This document shows positions 39,001-45,000 of a DNA stretch of 64,000 bases, piece after piece. Position numbers: made by a program. Numbering within the stretch: the first letter of the stretch is position 1; every line of letters begins with the position of its first letter. This DNA is from Mobula birostris (taxonomy: Eukaryota): assembly GCF_030028105.1 (NCBI RefSeq), contig NC_092372.1:117426997-117490996 (forward strand), given 5' to 3'.

Positions 39001-42000
39001 AAGTCCACAATCAGCTCTTTGGTCTTGCTGACATTGAGTGCAAGGTTGTTACTGTGACACCACTCCACTAGCTGGTATATCTCACTCCTGTACACCCTCT
39101 CATCTCCATCTGAGATTCTACTGACAATGGTTGTAGCATCAGCAAATTTATAGATGTTGTTTGAGCTGTGCCTAGCCATACAGTTACAGGTGTAGAGACT
39201 ACAGCAGTGGGCTAAGCACACATCCCTGTGGAGCGCCCATATTAATTGTCAACGGGGTTGAGAAGTCATTTCCAATCTGCACAGATTGTGGTATTCCAAT
39301 TAGGAAGCTGAGGATCCAGTTGCAGAGGGAGATACAGAGGCCCAGGTTCTGTAGCTTTTCAATCAGTACTGTAGGAGTGATGATGTTAAATACTGAGCTA
39401 TAGTCAATGAACAGCATCCTGATATGGGTATTTGCATCTTCCAAGTGATCTATGGCTGTGTGGAGAGCCATTTAGATCACGTCTGCTACAGACCTATAGT
39501 GACAATGTGCAAATTGTGGGTCCAGGTCCTTCCTGAAACAGATAGTCATTCTAGCCAAGACCAACCTTCCAAAGCATTTTCATCACTGTAGGTGTGAGCA
39601 GTACTGGACAACAGTCATTGAGGCAGCTCACACTGCTCTTCTTGGGCACTGGTATAATTGTTCTTTTGAAGCTGTTGTGAACTTCTGACTGTAGCAGTAA
39701 AAGATTGAAAATGTCTTTGAATACCCCCACCAGCTGGTTGGCGCAAGTTTTCAGGGCCTTACTCCATCAGGCCCTGCTGCCTTGCGAGGGTTCACCTTCT
39801 TGAAAGACAGCCTGACGTCAGCCTCCGAGACAGAGATTTCAGAGTCATAGGGTGCTGCAGGGATCCTCATAGCTGTTGTTTTATTCTCCCTTTCAAAGCG
39901 AGCACAAAAGGGGTTGAGTTTGTCTGAAAATGAAGCATGGGTGCCATTCACGATTTTGGGTTTTGCTCTGTGGGAATTAATGGTCTGCAAACCCTGCCAG
40001 AGTTGATGTGTATGGTAAGGTATAAAAGATGGAGCACAGCCTCCTCAGTGCATTATCCAAATCCATAAAAGAAATATCTGCAACTATTCTGCAGATCCCA
40101 TTTATATTGCATGTTTGCACAGTTGAGCTATTTAATTTCTGATTCTTGCTCTGGTGTGTGCAGCTTAATGCTGTAATGTCAAGTTAAAATGGTTAACAAG
40201 AGAGGGTGTTATTATTGCCTAGCACCTAGTAAATACTGATGCAGTAGAAGTTTTTTTTTGGTAGATTAATTAGTTTTAATATATTGATGTTTCTATTAAT
40301 ATTCTAGGTGGTATGACTGGATATGGCCGAAGACGACTGAAATAACTGATTCCATGAAGTTGGTTTTACTCATTTCTGGAAGAGCAGAAAAGACGTGGTT
40401 GGACGGAGGTAGCAGCTGCTAGACTAGAACTCTGCCATGGCGTTTCAGATGCTCTAGTAAATCTAGTTCCCTAAGTGAAAGTAAGAATGATCTCTCTGTG
40501 AAAAGACAATGATTCTTACTCCTTTTCACATTCCTGATACTTTTGCAAACCACAACAACAAATTGGATTCTTCCAGTCTTGCAGTGACTAGGTTGCAGCT
40601 AATTTGAACTGTTCAATGTAACAAATTTTCTCTCTTAGTTCTTATACTAATACCCAATGTTGCAACTCTACAGGATGGTTTGAGTTTCATTGTTTGTATA
40701 AAATATAGAAATTTAGACGCAGGAAGCCATTTGACTGATGATGTCCACATTGGTCAAAGAAAAACAAATCCAACCTCCTGAAAAATTTTGCTAGCTCTTG
40801 AACTTCAGGTATTCATCCAGGTATTTCTTAAATGTGATTAACATTTCTGCCTCTTCCATATATTCAGGCAATGAATTCAAAACTCCCTGCGTTATCTGGT
40901 GCAGATGTTTCCAAACCTTCCCACAACTCTACCAATTTAAATCAAAATCCTTGAATTATTGATCCGTCTCGTAAGGGAATTGTGTGAATTCTTCCATTTC
41001 TAACTCCATAAAATTTTACATCCTTAACTATGTGTCTCTGTTAAAGTGAAGTAGCCCCAGATTATCTATTATTTTCTCATAGCGTAAAATTCCCATGTCA
41101 GCATCCTCCGAGTTTTCCAGTCTATCCATTACCACTGCTGGTGTACCTGAAAATTGTATCCAATCCTTTAGGTTAGGAGTACTCTTTTCCTTTTTAAATC
41201 ATGATGTTGTGACAATTGTGTTCCAGTTCTTTAGCTTGATACAGAGAATTCAAAGATGCCAAGCAACAGAGGAAAATTATAAAATTAAATTGGATTCAGA
41301 CCTAATGAGATAATTGGACTGAGGCATGCTTTGGTTGATGTACTGTACAGAATTAAAGCATGTGTCGGCTCTTGGAATGGACTTCAGTGTTCCACTGTGT
41401 GTTGGACCTTCCCCCACAAATGGTTGATTGGCCCCTACTGCAGATGTTCCCATCTTGGGGTCCACAGACCCCTCGGTTAATCGTGAGGCTCCGGACATAA
41501 AAATGATTGGGCGCCCCTGTGCCTGGTGAAACCTATCACCATTGTGGAGATTATAAATTAAAGGAGTTTGGGATTAAATCATTGGGATGGGGTAGGGAGG
41601 CATGAGAGTATATGCAATTTTATTAAAGAGAAATGGTGTTTGGCAGATTTCATATTGTTTCATATTTCTTACAATAGAAGAAGCTCCAGTCTTCAAAATC
41701 CTATCAAACTCTTAGTCCCCATTCCCTCACTTAGTTCCCATTCTCTTGCATATGCCCATTAAGTCGACCCAAATCTATCACCGTCGACAATAGGGATGAT
41801 CTACAGTAGTCTATTCACCTAGCCAGCTCACCTTGTGGCAGTGACAACCTGAGTTACTATAACTGAGGTAGGAGCACTACCCACTGCACCCTGGTGCCTG
41901 ACATTTTTTTAGACTTCTTTGAGCATCTATCTATTAATAGTAATTGGAATATTTTAAACTGGGAATTTTAAGCTATGAGAAAATAATAGATAGACTGGGG

Positions 42001-45000
42001 CTGCTTTATTTTAACAGAGACATGTAGTTAAGGATGTAAAATTTTATGGAGTTAGAAATGGAAGAATTCACACAATTTCCTTACGAGACGGATCAATAAT
42101 TCAAGGATTTTTAGTTAAATTAAATTGGTAAAAGCCCACTAAAAGGAATTCAATAAAGTGCCATGTAAAGGGGTATGTTGCATGTTAGTGGTCACGCTAT
42201 TTGGGGCAATATACCTGTAGAGAAGTAGCTCTCTAACAACACAAAACATTAAGGATAACTGGACCATTTTCAGGTTGGTGCGCTGTTACCAGTAGAGCAC
42301 AGGGATCTGTCCTGAGATTCAACTATTTGCAGTTTAGATGAATGCTTTGAGTGGAGATGGGGTATATGTGCTCATGACTGATGGGAATGAATGTGGAGGG
42401 GTTGTAAAGTGTTGGGCAGAAACTTTCAGAACACAGTATAACTGTGAGAATGTGGCCTTAACTACTTGGGTAGGAGGATTAGAAAAACATACTCTATTGC
42501 GATTATCGACCCGAGAAAGCTCTGGCCTGGATGAGTAGTGTAGTGTAACGGAGGGTGATATGTCAGCTTCCATCACACTGTTGTGAAATTCTGGGGTCTG
42601 ACCAATATACCAACACAAGGATCAGGTGCAGCCAGTCACTTGCAATGCCTTGCACTCACTGGTGTACCTTCATGTGACCTCATGCCTGAAGACAACATGT
42701 CAACACCAATCCACAACACTGGTCCTCATAAGCAGCTTTTCCACACAGAGATGTGGAGTGATTCATCACTGGGTTTGTGGCAGGGACTCAGAAAGGGAGC
42801 ACCTGCTGTGTTTGTGTTTGTTTCACAATGACTGCTTCAGGACTGATTCCACTACCAGTGTATGGAATGCTGTGGGGCAAAGAAATCCGGGTGTACTTGT
42901 ACATGAAGCACAAAGTTAGCAAACAGGTACAACAAGGTTTATTACAACTGTGCAAGGCATTGTGGGACCACACTTGGAATAATGTGTAGGACTCCTTATT
43001 TAGATGGTTACATACTTGCATTGCAGGCTGATAAGAGAAAATCCACATGGTTAGTTCCTAGAAAGAATAAGATCACAGGCAGTAATTTTACCACGATGTG
43101 AAATTGGCCATCCCTGCTTCTGTAAAGAAGGGTTGAGCAGGTGGGGTTTTTATTCATTGCAGTTTAATATAATGTAAAGGTATCATAATATATTTAAAGT
43201 TTGCAGGGCACTTGACAGAGGAGTTGGTGTAGGGATAGTTCTTCAAAGTAAATTTATTATCAAAGTACATATACTGTGTTATCATATACAACCTTAAAAT
43301 TCATTTTCTTATGGAAATACTGAATAAACCTATAGAATAATAACCATAACAAAATCAATGAAAGACCGCATCAACATGGTTGTTCAAGCAGTGTGAAAAA
43401 GACAACAAACTGCAAACACAGAAAGAAAGGAATAATAATCAGAATCAGATTTAATATCACTGGCATATGTTTTGAAATATGTTGTATGCAATTGAAAAAC
43501 GTGAATTACAGTGAATATATATATATTAAATAGTTAAATTAAGTAAGTAATACAAAAATAGAAATAAGAAAAGTAATGAGATAGAGTTCATAGGTTCAAT
43601 GTCCATTTTGGAATCGGATGGCAGAGGGGAAGAAGCTGTTCCTGAATCATTAAGTGTGTGCCTTCGGGCTTCTGTACCTCCTTCTTGATGGTTGCCGTGA
43701 GAACAAGGCATGCCCTGGGTGATTAAATAAGCAATAAATATCAAGGACCTGAGACAGAGAGTCCTTGAACGTGTTGTGGAAACATTCCAATGATGGGGCA
43801 AGTGAAGTTGAGTGAAGCTACCCCTTTGGTTCAAGGGCCTGATGCTTGAGGGGTAGTAATTGTTCCTGAACCTGGGGCTCCTGTGCCTTCTTCCTGCTGG
43901 CAGCAGTGAGAAGGCAGCCGCTGCCTGATGATGCATGTTGCTTTCCTGCGACAGTATCTTATGTAGATGTGCTCAATGGTGGGGAGGATTTTACCCCTGA
44001 TGGCCATATCCACTACTTTTTGTAGGATTTTCCATTCAAGAGCTTTGGTGTTTCCATGGCAAGCTGTGAAGCAGCTAGTCAATATACTCTCCACTGCACT
44101 AATATAGAAATTTTTCAAGGTGTTAGATGTCATGCCAAATCTTCGCGAACACCTAAGGGGGTAGGGTTGCTGCCCTGCTTTCTTCATAATTTCACTTGCG
44201 TGCTGGGCCCAGGACCGGTCCTATGAAGGATTTAAAGTCTCCACCTCTGATCCCCTGAGGACTGCCTCATGGTGCTCTGGTTCCCTTCTCCTGAAGTCAA
44301 TAATCAGCTCCTTGGTCTTGCTGACATTGAGTAAGAGGTTGTTGTTATGACACTACTCAGCCAGATCTTCAGTCTCCTTCCTATATGCTGATTCATCACC
44401 ATTTTTGATTCTGCCTGTGACAGTGGTGTCATCAGCAAACTTGAATTTGACATTGGAACTGTGCTTAGCTACACAGTCATAAGTGTAAAGTGAGTAGAGC
44501 AGGGGGCCAAGCACACAGCCTTGTGGTGCATCTGTGCTGATGGAGATTGTGGAGGAGATATTGTTGCCAATTCGAACAGGCTAGGGTCTGCAAGTGTGGA
44601 AATCGAAGATCCAATTCCACAAGAAGGTATTGAGATCAGGGTCTGGGAGCTTATTGATAAGTTTTTGAAGAGATAATGGTATTGAATGCTGAGCTGTAGT
44701 CAATAAAGAGCATCCAGTTTTATGCATCTGTGCTGTCCAGATGTTCCAGGCTTGAGTAAAGAGCCACTGAGGTGGACCTGTTGCTTTAGTAGGCAAATTA
44801 GAGCAGATCTAAGTCGCTTTGCAGGCAGTAGTTGATACGTTTCATCACCAACTTCTCAAACACTTCATCACTGTGGATGTAAGTGCTCCTGGACGATGGT
44901 CAGTGAAGCAGGTCACCACTTTCTTCTTGGGCACCAGTATAATTGAGGCCTGCTTGAAGCAGGTGGGTACCTTTAGATTGCAAAATGAGAGGTTAAAGTT

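What the first reader, a model, noticed from the sequence alone, without database searches (positions are those of the whole stretch)
40944..42111. 152-bp intronic inverted repeat in KLHL12 whose arm differences are almost all G-U wobbles on the transcribed strand
Seen: arms 40944-41095 and 41960-42111 pair without gaps. Of 9 non-Watson-Crick positions, 7 are G-U/U-G in the + (KLHL12 pre-mRNA) strand (40977, 41031, 41032, 41046, 41048, 41052, 41062) and 2 are true mismatches (41061, 41084). All 7 transitions fall on the G-U side, about 1 in 128 if G-U and A-C were equally likely. An extra 11-bp helix (40930-40940 / 42120-42130) extends it. Both arms look like heavily decayed CR1 3' sequence, yet they are 94% identical and gap-free, so they were homogenised or duplicated after decay. 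Inference: a ~150-bp dsRNA stem preserved in the pre-mRNA, which could be an ADAR editing or endo-siRNA substrate or a splicing loop-out, 460 bp downstream of a candidate UTR exon. Neutral alternative: gene conversion or a recent inverted duplication plus transcription-associated C>T / A>G bias on the coding strand, which also yields G-U.
Basis: partly seen in the sequence, partly recalled or inferred. Interest (0 to 1): 0.75.

Follow-up and report, generated by a model that had tools for sequence, protein, structure and literature searches.

The report
Young inverted repeat in KLHL12 intron
A real pair of about 165-base inverted copies lies upstream of the first coding exon of an elasmobranch KLHL12 gene and would fold into a long RNA hairpin if transcribed, but its all-wobble pattern is only weakly unusual and it looks like an ordinary young repeat.

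Summary
Arms 40944-41095 and 41960-42111 pair without gaps: 143 Watson-Crick pairs, 7 G-U and 2 mismatches, at the listed positions. An 11-bp outer helix follows a 5-nt bulge.

KLHL12 is on the + strand. A CpG island with consensus donors at 37.1-37.5 kb and AG acceptors before the ATG exon at 49.8 kb make an intronic position likely, but this is inferred.

The evidence for a preserved stem is weak:
- In 25 other inverted pairs of the window, G-U-type changes make up 466 of 895 transitions, or 0.52.
- Runs of 7 consecutive transitions are all G-U in 12 of 749 cases (1.6%), and runs of 6 in 27 of 773 (3.5%).
- Two of the seven sites are the two halves of one mirrored TG/TG dinucleotide, so they count as one trial.
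- Seven of the 11 differences lie within 32 nt.
- With all seven sites as A-C mismatches (the minus strand), the arms keep 92% of the pairing energy, so selection per site would be very weak.

No other copy, Rfam family or CR1 similarity was found. Orthologous introns and RNA data could not be checked.

The parts
40930..41095 (.). Left arm of the inverted repeat: the 152-nt core 40944-41095, the 162-nt gap-free stretch from 40934, and an outer 11-bp helix 40930-40940.
   Evidence: 31.5% G+C, with CpGs at 40965, 40970 and 41083.
41096..41959 (.). 864-nt spacer, which would be the loop of the hairpin. No coding signal and no RNA family.
   Evidence: One search gives the spacing. The two longest spacer ORFs had no Pfam match (proteins 7 and 8). 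Rfam found nothing at gathering scores, and only one chance-level match in 40000-43000, outside the element. No tRNA-like head was found. The only similarity elsewhere in the window is 75 nt at 68% to 21294-21368.
41960..42130 (.). Right arm of the inverted repeat: the core 41960-42111, the gap-free stretch to 42121, and the outer helix 42120-42130 beyond a 5-nt bulge.
   Evidence: CpGs at 42084 and 42089.
41031..41062 (.). A 32-nt patch of the left arm (partner 41993-42024) that holds 7 of the 11 arm differences, 6 of them G-U sites. It includes the mirrored TG/TG dinucleotide 41031-41032 / 42023-42024.
   Evidence: One search gives the per-site contexts. One search gives the scan statistic: P = 0.028 for a 32-nt window, 0.084 for 40 nt and 0.135 for 20 nt.
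37101..37500 (+). CpG island with consensus splice donors (GT at 37256-37257 in a GTAAGT context, and GT at 37424-37425). Candidate KLHL12 promoter and non-coding exon 1.
   Evidence: CpG observed/expected 0.68-0.69 and G+C 0.56, against a background of 0.14-0.3. The sequence was read. The assignment to KLHL12 is inferred.
40308..40480 (+).
   Evidence: Read only. No transcript evidence, not verified.
49784..49980 (+). KLHL12 exon carrying the start codon (ATG at 49798-49800) and the start of the BTB domain. Several AG acceptor candidates lie at 49709-49783, and the donor GT is at 49981-49982.
   Evidence: sequence. Pfam BTB, E = 2.9e-15; best named hits are kelch-like protein 12 of Pristiophorus japonicus (98%) and Narcine bancroftii (97%).

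Best explanation
This is a young inverted duplication of about 166-171 bp separated by 864 bp. It is either the terminal inverted repeats of a ~1.2-kb non-autonomous DNA transposon flanked by TA, or a local inverted duplication. It lies in the non-coding 5' part of an elasmobranch KLHL12 gene, most likely in an intron between a non-coding first exon (near 37.2 kb, or 40.4 kb) and the ATG exon at 49.8 kb.

If transcribed with KLHL12, the + strand would fold into a ~165-bp double-stranded stem with an 864-nt loop. It would then behave as intronic inverted repeats usually do in vertebrates: a passive substrate for ADAR editing that is removed with the intron.

The arms have diverged by about 7% by ordinary mutation. 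That all seven transitions read as G-U on the + strand is best explained by three things together:
- small numbers;
- one decayed palindromic CpG that counts twice;
- a modest coding-strand excess of C>T and A>G changes.

Selection for pairing is not needed. What is shown: the repeat, its strand relative to KLHL12, the predicted fold and the local control ratios. What is inferred: the intronic position, transcription, ADAR editing, and the origin of the duplication.
For: - **Repeat.** The repeat and its exact pair counts come.
- **Gene and strand.** KLHL12 is on the + strand: BTB and BACK exons at 49.8, 53.1 and 53.9 kb, with kelch-like protein 12 of elasmobranchs as best hits.
- **Upstream exon.** There is a CpG island at 37.1-37.5 kb and none near the ATG exon. 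Consensus donors lie at 37256 and 37424 and acceptor candidates before the ATG.
- **Transcribed-strand composition.** G+T on the + strand is 52.2% in 37257-49783. This is close to the 52.7% equilibrium quoted for the forward strand of mammalian genes (PMC1391917, passage read).
- **Fold.** There are 163 pairs between the two ends. The arms alone give -251.1 kcal/mol on the + strand and -232.3 on the - strand, so seven A-C mismatches cost only 7.5%.
- **Controls.** In 25 other inverted pairs, G-U-type is 466 and A-C-type 429. All-G-U runs number 12 of 749 for runs of seven and 27 of 773 for runs of six. There is no excess heterogeneity among the pairs (chi-square 24.6, 24 df).
- **Double-counted site.** The mirrored TG/TG at 41031-32 / 42023-24 is what a palindromic CpG gives when both arms lose the + strand C. 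The other visible outcome would have been two A-C mismatches, so the two sites are one trial.
- **A comparable element nearby.** A Tc1/Sleeping-Beauty-like remnant with 131-136-nt inverted ends lies in the same gene at 57705-59112. It is 87.5% identical between ends, with 4 G-U and 3 A-C. This shows that long-armed DNA transposons occur here.
- **No known RNA.** No Rfam family or tRNA-like structure was found.
Against: - The local strand bias measured in old repeats is small (0.52, 95% interval 0.487-0.554). Under it, 7 of 7 has P = 0.010-0.016 and 6 of 6 has P = 0.020-0.029. The pattern is therefore nominally unusual, and chance is an explanation by default, not by demonstration.
- Counting all differences, 7 of 11 are G-U type, against 466 of 1480 (31%) in the controls.
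- No target-site duplication beyond the self-complementary TA could be seen.
- No second copy of the arm exists in the 64 kb.
- The spacer has no transposase remnant. The transposon origin is therefore unproven.
- Transcription through the repeat is not shown.
Confidence: 0.65

Rival explanations
1. The stem is a functional double-stranded RNA element of the KLHL12 pre-mRNA: an ADAR-recruiting (editing-inducer) duplex, a hairpin source of small RNAs, or a structure that shapes splicing of the 5' non-coding exons. Purifying selection has removed pair-breaking transitions and tolerated wobbles.
For: - All 7 transitions are G-U on the sense strand and none is A-C, which is nominally unusual against local controls (1.6% of runs of seven).
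- The arms are gap-free over 162 nt.
- The + strand is the better folder (-251 against -232 kcal/mol).
- The stem lies 463 nt downstream of a stretch with acceptor and donor signals.
- Precedent: a conserved intronic duplex needed for editing of Gabra-3 (PMC3479170, abstract read).
Against: - The effective number of trials is six or fewer, and the test was chosen after seeing the data.
- Four transversion mismatches were tolerated.
- A-C in place of G-U would cost only 7.5% of the pairing energy and leave 159 of 163 pairs, so selection per site should be negligible.
- In human Alu foldbacks, A-C mismatches are favoured editing sites that become I-C pairs (PMC526178, passages read), which further removes any cost.
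- There is no Rfam family.
- No conservation data are available.
Confidence: 0.1
2. The G-U excess is mutational but local. The + strand of this repeat was preferentially exposed as single-stranded DNA, either as the non-template strand during transcription or in hairpin-associated replication or repair intermediates. It suffered strand-coordinated deamination (C>T and A>G), partly in a cluster, at a bias stronger than the regional average.
For: - Both change types that create G-U are + strand C>T and A>G. This is the direction of the known transcription-associated asymmetry (PMC1559705 abstract as listed; PMC1391917 passage).
- G+T is 52.2% in the putative intron.
- 7 of 11 differences fall in 32 nt.
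- Among young variants of the two minisatellites, distinct G-U-type changes (A>G plus C>T) number 10 on 34 target bases of the consensus units, against 4 A-C-type changes on 27 target bases. This hints at a stronger recent bias than the old repeats show.
Against: - The minisatellite counts are too small to be significant and are confounded by CpG sites and array dynamics.
- Clustering is marginal and depends on window width (P = 0.028 to 0.135).
- Whatever the polarity, the changes are spread over both arms.
- The old-repeat control shows only 0.52.
Confidence: 0.15
3. The repeat is not part of any KLHL12 transcript. It lies in intergenic DNA between ADIPOR1 and a KLHL12 start site close to the ATG exon, so no RNA hairpin forms and the strand argument is moot.
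For: - No transcript data were available.
- The repeat is 7.7 kb upstream of the ATG.
- The assignment of the 37.1-37.5 kb island to KLHL12 is an inference.
Against: - The 2 kb around the ATG exon is 37% G+C with CpG observed/expected 0.24-0.25, and no island passes the filter there.
- Pyrimidine-rich AG acceptors precede the ATG.
- The only island between ADIPOR1 and KLHL12 lies upstream of the repeat and is followed by consensus donors.
Confidence: 0.1

Closest known systems
Inverted Alu pairs (IRAlus) in human introns and UTRs, the main ADAR substrates
   Same: Two inverted copies of a repeat within about 1 kb in one transcription unit, predicted to form a long imperfect duplex. CpG decay creates the non-Watson-Crick positions (PMC526178, passages read; PMC11263572 seen as a listing).
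   Different: The arms here are not a SINE, since no tRNA-like head or Rfam match was found. They have no other copy in 64 kb and are much more alike (93-94%) than the other repeats of the window (67-88%). Editing was not tested.
Long terminal inverted repeats of Tc1/Sleeping-Beauty-type DNA transposons and their non-autonomous derivatives
   Same: Arms of 130-170 nt in inverted orientation about 1.2-1.4 kb apart, with TA at both outer ends. A genuine Tc1-like remnant of this build lies in the same gene at 57705-59112.
   Different: No sequence similarity to that element. There is no transposase remnant in the spacer. TA is self-complementary, so it cannot be told from the repeat itself. The genomic copy number is unknown.
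Intronic editing-inducer duplex of Gabra-3
   Same: A long intronic duplex in the same pre-mRNA as the exons it could act on (PMC3479170, abstract read).
   Different: That duplex is evolutionarily conserved and shown by experiment to be required for editing. Here neither conservation, nor an edited site, nor editing itself is known.
Engineered G:U hairpin-RNA transgenes in plants
   Same: Differences between the arms that are all G-U keep the RNA hairpin while breaking the perfect DNA palindrome (PMC9263138, abstract read).
   Different: That design is deliberate, with every C of one arm changed. Here there are 7 sites in 152, spread over both arms, in an animal, with no evidence of small-RNA production.

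Membership tests
Intronic inverted-repeat dsRNA (ADAR-substrate type, like inverted Alus) | Two inverted copies close together | tested here: met
   162-nt arms, 93% complementary, 864 nt apart.
Intronic inverted-repeat dsRNA (ADAR-substrate type, like inverted Alus) | Both copies lie within one transcript (intron) | tested here: inconclusive
   KLHL12 is on the + strand. A CpG island with donors lies upstream and acceptors precede the ATG exon. No transcript data.
Intronic inverted-repeat dsRNA (ADAR-substrate type, like inverted Alus) | Long duplex predicted in the RNA | tested here: met
   The fold of 40920-42140 pairs 163 positions between the ends. The arms alone give -251.1 kcal/mol.
Intronic inverted-repeat dsRNA (ADAR-substrate type, like inverted Alus) | Clusters of A-to-G differences between RNA and DNA | not testable with these tools
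TIR DNA transposon / non-autonomous Tc1-mariner-like element | Terminal inverted repeats | tested here: met
   The outer ends are at 40930 and 42130.
TIR DNA transposon / non-autonomous Tc1-mariner-like element | Target-site duplication flanking the ends | tested here: inconclusive
   Only TA at both ends, which is self-complementary and so part of the repeat. No longer direct repeat abuts the ends (read).
TIR DNA transposon / non-autonomous Tc1-mariner-like element | Other copies of the family in the genome | tested here: inconclusive
   None in the 64-kb window. The rest of the genome was not available.
TIR DNA transposon / non-autonomous Tc1-mariner-like element | Transposase gene or remnant between the ends | tested here: not met
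   The two longest spacer ORFs (98 and 76 aa) have no Pfam family at E <= 0.01. A non-autonomous element would have none.
   No similarity of the arms to any other part of the window, which holds many reverse-transcriptase-bearing LINE fragments. The best matches are 24-44 nt at E = 0.07-0.19. No repeat library was available.
RNA structure under purifying selection | Compensatory changes across orthologues | not testable with these tools
RNA structure under purifying selection | Wobble-over-mismatch excess beyond the local mutational bias | tested here: inconclusive
   7:0 here against 466:429 in 25 control pairs. The empirical frequency of all-G-U runs is 1.6% for seven and 3.5% for six. The sites are dependent and clustered.
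Known RNA families (miRNA, snoRNA and others) | Match to a curated covariance model | tested here: not met
   0 matches at gathering scores in the whole window. In 40000-43000 there is one chance-level match at E = 0.45, outside the element.

The most novel reading that the evidence does not exclude
The stem is a selected, strand-specific double-stranded RNA element in the 5' intron of KLHL12, conserved among elasmobranchs. It would be, for example, an ADAR-recruiting duplex or a hairpin small-RNA source. Its arms are allowed to drift only through G-U wobbles. That keeps the RNA helix while eroding the perfect DNA palindrome, a natural counterpart of the engineered G:U hairpin design.
Probability: 0.08. 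Interest if true: 0.55.

Novelty: new member of a known kind. Interest (0 to 1): 0.2.

Why it matters
If the wobble-only pattern reflected selection, it would mark a long functional dsRNA in a vertebrate housekeeping-type gene. It would also show that one genome sequence can reveal such stems through G-U against A-C asymmetry.

As it stands, the finding has two uses. It is a worked control: the G-U:A-C ratio of other inverted pairs in the same window gives a direct local estimate of strand bias. It is also a candidate to include in a genome-wide test. On its own it is an ordinary young inverted repeat.

Tried and rejected
- **Other copies.** BLAST at word size 9 and then 7, at relaxed thresholds, found no other copy of the arms or spacer in the window. 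The changes therefore could not be polarised and a repeat family could not be defined.
- **RNA families.** Rfam at gathering scores on the whole window gave nothing. The permissive search on 40000-43000 gave one chance-level plastid UTR match at 40473-40525, E = 0.45. ARAGORN found no tRNA-like SINE head.
- **Spacer ORFs.** Pfam on the two longest spacer ORFs found no family.
- **Target-site duplication.** Read by eye. Only TA abuts both ends. A CCCAC pentamer at 40920-40924 and 42135-42139 is not adjacent to them, and I took it for chance.
- **Minisatellites.** I tried to polarise recent + strand mutations from the two arrays. There were too few distinct variants (10 against 4) to settle the strength of the bias.
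- **Clustering.** The result depends on window width.
- **Literature.** 'KLHL12' together with 'inverted repeat' returned 0 papers.
- **Assembly artefact.** I rejected this by reasoning only. The arms differ at 11 positions and by a 5-nt indel, and they enclose 864 nt of unique sequence.

**Not attempted**

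
Full report
**The observation**

- Arms 40944-41095 and 41960-42111 pair without gaps over 152 positions.
- There are 143 Watson-Crick pairs and seven G-T/T-G pairs on the + strand, at 40977, 41031, 41032, 41046, 41048, 41052 and 41062.
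- There are two other mismatches, at 41061 and 41084.
- The same register runs on to 40934/42121: 162 nt, 93%, BLAST E = 5.8e-66. This adds two transversion mismatches at 40941 and 40943.
- Beyond a 5-nt bulge, the 11-bp helix 40930-40940 / 42120-42130 is also there.

The Kimura two-parameter distance between the arms is 0.072. The other 25 inverted pairs of the window are 67-88% identical, so this is by far the youngest dispersed duplication in the 64 kb.

**Context**

The window is not human.
- The ATG-bearing exon at 49798-49980 carries the start of a BTB domain. Its best named matches are kelch-like protein 12 of the sawshark Pristiophorus japonicus (98%) and the electric ray Narcine bancroftii (97%).
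- Further BTB and BACK exons lie at about 53.1 and 53.9 kb, all on the + strand.
- Exons matching Pfam's Haemolysin-III-related family (PF03006) lie on the + strand at 25-31 kb. I take them for ADIPOR1 by recall of that protein.
- Exons were searched one at a time.

The repeat lies 7.7 kb upstream of the ATG. Three observations suggest that a non-coding first exon lies upstream of the repeat:
- The only CpG island between ADIPOR1 and KLHL12 is at 37.1-37.5 kb. It is followed by consensus donors at 37256 and 37424. It also holds a motif that, from recall, resembles the ACTACA/ZNF143-type promoter box.
- The region of the ATG exon is AT-rich with no island.
- That exon is preceded by pyrimidine-rich AG acceptors.

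It has an AG acceptor and a GTAAGA donor, but nothing more could be tested. The intronic position is therefore likely but inferred. G+T on the + strand of 37257-49783 is 52.2%. This is the direction expected for a transcribed sense strand, where 52.7% is quoted for mammalian genes (PMC1391917, passage read).

**What the repeat is**

- Neither the arms nor the spacer recur in the window.
- Rfam gives nothing and ARAGORN gives nothing.
- The two longest spacer ORFs have no Pfam family.
- The suggested CR1 3' origin found no support against the many LINE fragments of the window. No repeat library was available to test it properly.

Both the inner and outer boundaries of the two arms coincide, and the outer ends are flush with TA on both sides. 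This fits two origins: a ~1.2-kb non-autonomous DNA transposon with long terminal inverted repeats and a TA target duplication, or a local inverted duplication. TA is self-complementary, so it decides nothing.

A comparable genuine element exists in the same gene. A Tc1/Sleeping-Beauty-like remnant (HTH_SB, E = 5.7e-15) lies between 131-136-nt inverted ends at 57705-57835 and 58977-59112. The ends are 87.5% identical, with 4 G-U-type and 3 A-C-type transitions.

**Is the wobble-only pattern evidence of a preserved stem?**

On an inverted pair, + strand C>T and A>G changes give G-U, and + strand G>A and T>C give A-C. The G-U:A-C ratio of other inverted pairs therefore measures the local strand bias directly.

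*Control ratios.*
- The 25 other inverted BLAST pairs of the window (E <= 1e-5, symmetric duplicates removed, target excluded) give 466 G-U-type, 429 A-C-type and 585 transversions. The G-U fraction is 0.521, with a 95% interval of 0.487-0.554.
- The 13 pairs with both members downstream of 37256 give 250:232.
- These pairs share members, so they are not fully independent. Heterogeneity is not excessive (chi-square 24.6, 24 df). One of the 25 pairs departs from 1:1 at P < 0.05, and it departs in the A-C direction (14:28).

*Resulting probabilities.*
- Under these ratios, 7 of 7 has P = 0.010-0.016.
- Empirically, 12 of 749 runs of seven consecutive transitions in the controls are all G-U and 7 are all A-C.

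*Dependence between sites.*
- Sites 41031/41032 pair with 42024/42023, and both arms read TG there. This is what a palindromic CpG leaves when each arm loses its + strand C. The alternative outcomes are invisible (TG with CA) or two A-C mismatches, so these two sites are one binary trial.
- With six trials, P is 0.020-0.029. Empirically it is 27 of 773 (3.5%).
- Seven of the 11 differences lie within 32 nt (P = 0.028 at that width, 0.084 and 0.135 at 40 and 20 nt). One G-U site abuts a transversion (41061/41062). The number of independent events may therefore be smaller still.

*A second, weak control.* Distinct variants of the two minisatellites number 10 G-U-type on 34 target bases and 4 A-C-type on 27 target bases. 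This hints that the recent + strand bias may exceed 0.52, but the counts are too small to rely on.

*Energy.* The minus-strand RNA, in which all seven sites are A-C mismatches, still pairs 159 positions between the ends and keeps -232.3 of -251.1 kcal/mol. A single wobble-to-mismatch change alters the stem by about 1%, so purifying selection on individual pairs would be extremely weak. In human Alu foldbacks, A-C mismatches produced by CpG decay are favoured editing sites and become I-C pairs (PMC526178, passages read). That would further remove any cost.

*Selection of the test.* The pattern was noticed after reading. In any scan of many windows, 1-3% of young inverted repeats would show it by chance.

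**Verdict**

The inverted repeat is real and would form a long hairpin in a + strand transcript. It probably lies in a 5' intron of KLHL12. By analogy with inverted repeats in other vertebrate introns, it would be a passive ADAR substrate. That it is a preserved, functional stem is not shown.

Three explanations are compatible with it:
- chance together with CpG decay and a mild coding-strand bias;
- a stronger local strand-coordinated mutational process;
- selection, the least likely of the three.

**What stayed unchecked**

- Orthologous introns and the genomic copy number of the arm.
- All RNA evidence: transcript structure, editing and small RNAs.

**Papers, and how much of each I saw**

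- PMC1391917: passages.
- Green et al. 2003: only as an entry in the reference list of PMC1391917.
- PMC1559705: start of the abstract in a listing.
- PMC526178: passages.
- PMC3479170 and PMC9263138: abstracts.
- PMC11263572: listing only.
- A search for 'KLHL12' with 'inverted repeat' found no paper.

Noticed in passing
window 57705-59112: Remnant of a Tc1/Sleeping-Beauty-like DNA transposon on the minus strand. An N-terminal transposase ORF at 58384-58821 matches HTH_SB (E = 5.7e-15). A further ORF lies at 57839-58123; it has no Pfam match and I take it, from its sequence alone, to be the transposase C-terminal part. The element is bounded by 131-136-nt inverted ends that are 87.5% identical. 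It lies in a KLHL12 intron and would also form an RNA hairpin.
   Followed up: partly
window 10422-11071 and 22677-24138: Two large minisatellites: a 31-bp unit in 21 copies and a 30-bp unit in 48.7 copies, both 93% matching. The second has a strong C-over-G skew and lies upstream of the exons I take for ADIPOR1.
   Followed up: partly
window 1601-2100, 13801-14500, 37101-37500: Three CpG islands in an otherwise CpG-depleted window (observed/expected 0.1-0.5). They are probably the promoters of an upstream gene, of ADIPOR1 and of KLHL12. The third has consensus splice donors just downstream.
   Followed up: partly
window 40308-40480: A 173-nt stretch bounded by a pyrimidine-rich AG and a GTAAGA donor, relatively rich in CpG for its surroundings, with a short ATG-initiated reading frame.
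   Followed up: no
window 7284-7868: A + strand ORF matching the Ribosomal_L16 domain (E = 1.1e-28). It looks like the large C-terminal exon of a mitochondrial ribosomal protein L16 gene, upstream of the presumed ADIPOR1.
   Followed up: no
window 44142-44928 / 47350-48174 and 59624-60895 / 62320-63243: Inverted pairs of reverse-transcriptase-bearing LINE fragments, 75-78% identical and 400-830 nt long, 2.4-3 kb apart within the KLHL12 region. They are further potential but much weaker intramolecular duplexes. Their G-U:A-C counts are 52:44, 37:38 and 22:29.
   Followed up: partly
window 38380-38810 / 57195-57648: The one control inverted pair with a nominally significant imbalance, and it goes the other way (14 G-U-type against 28 A-C-type). 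It shows the spread that such counts reach without any pairing, since the copies are 19 kb apart.
   Followed up: no
window 41446-41519 and 21294-21368: A 75-nt stretch of the hairpin's spacer resembles a stretch 20 kb upstream (68% identity, E = 1.6e-4), perhaps a fragment of an old interspersed repeat.
   Followed up: no
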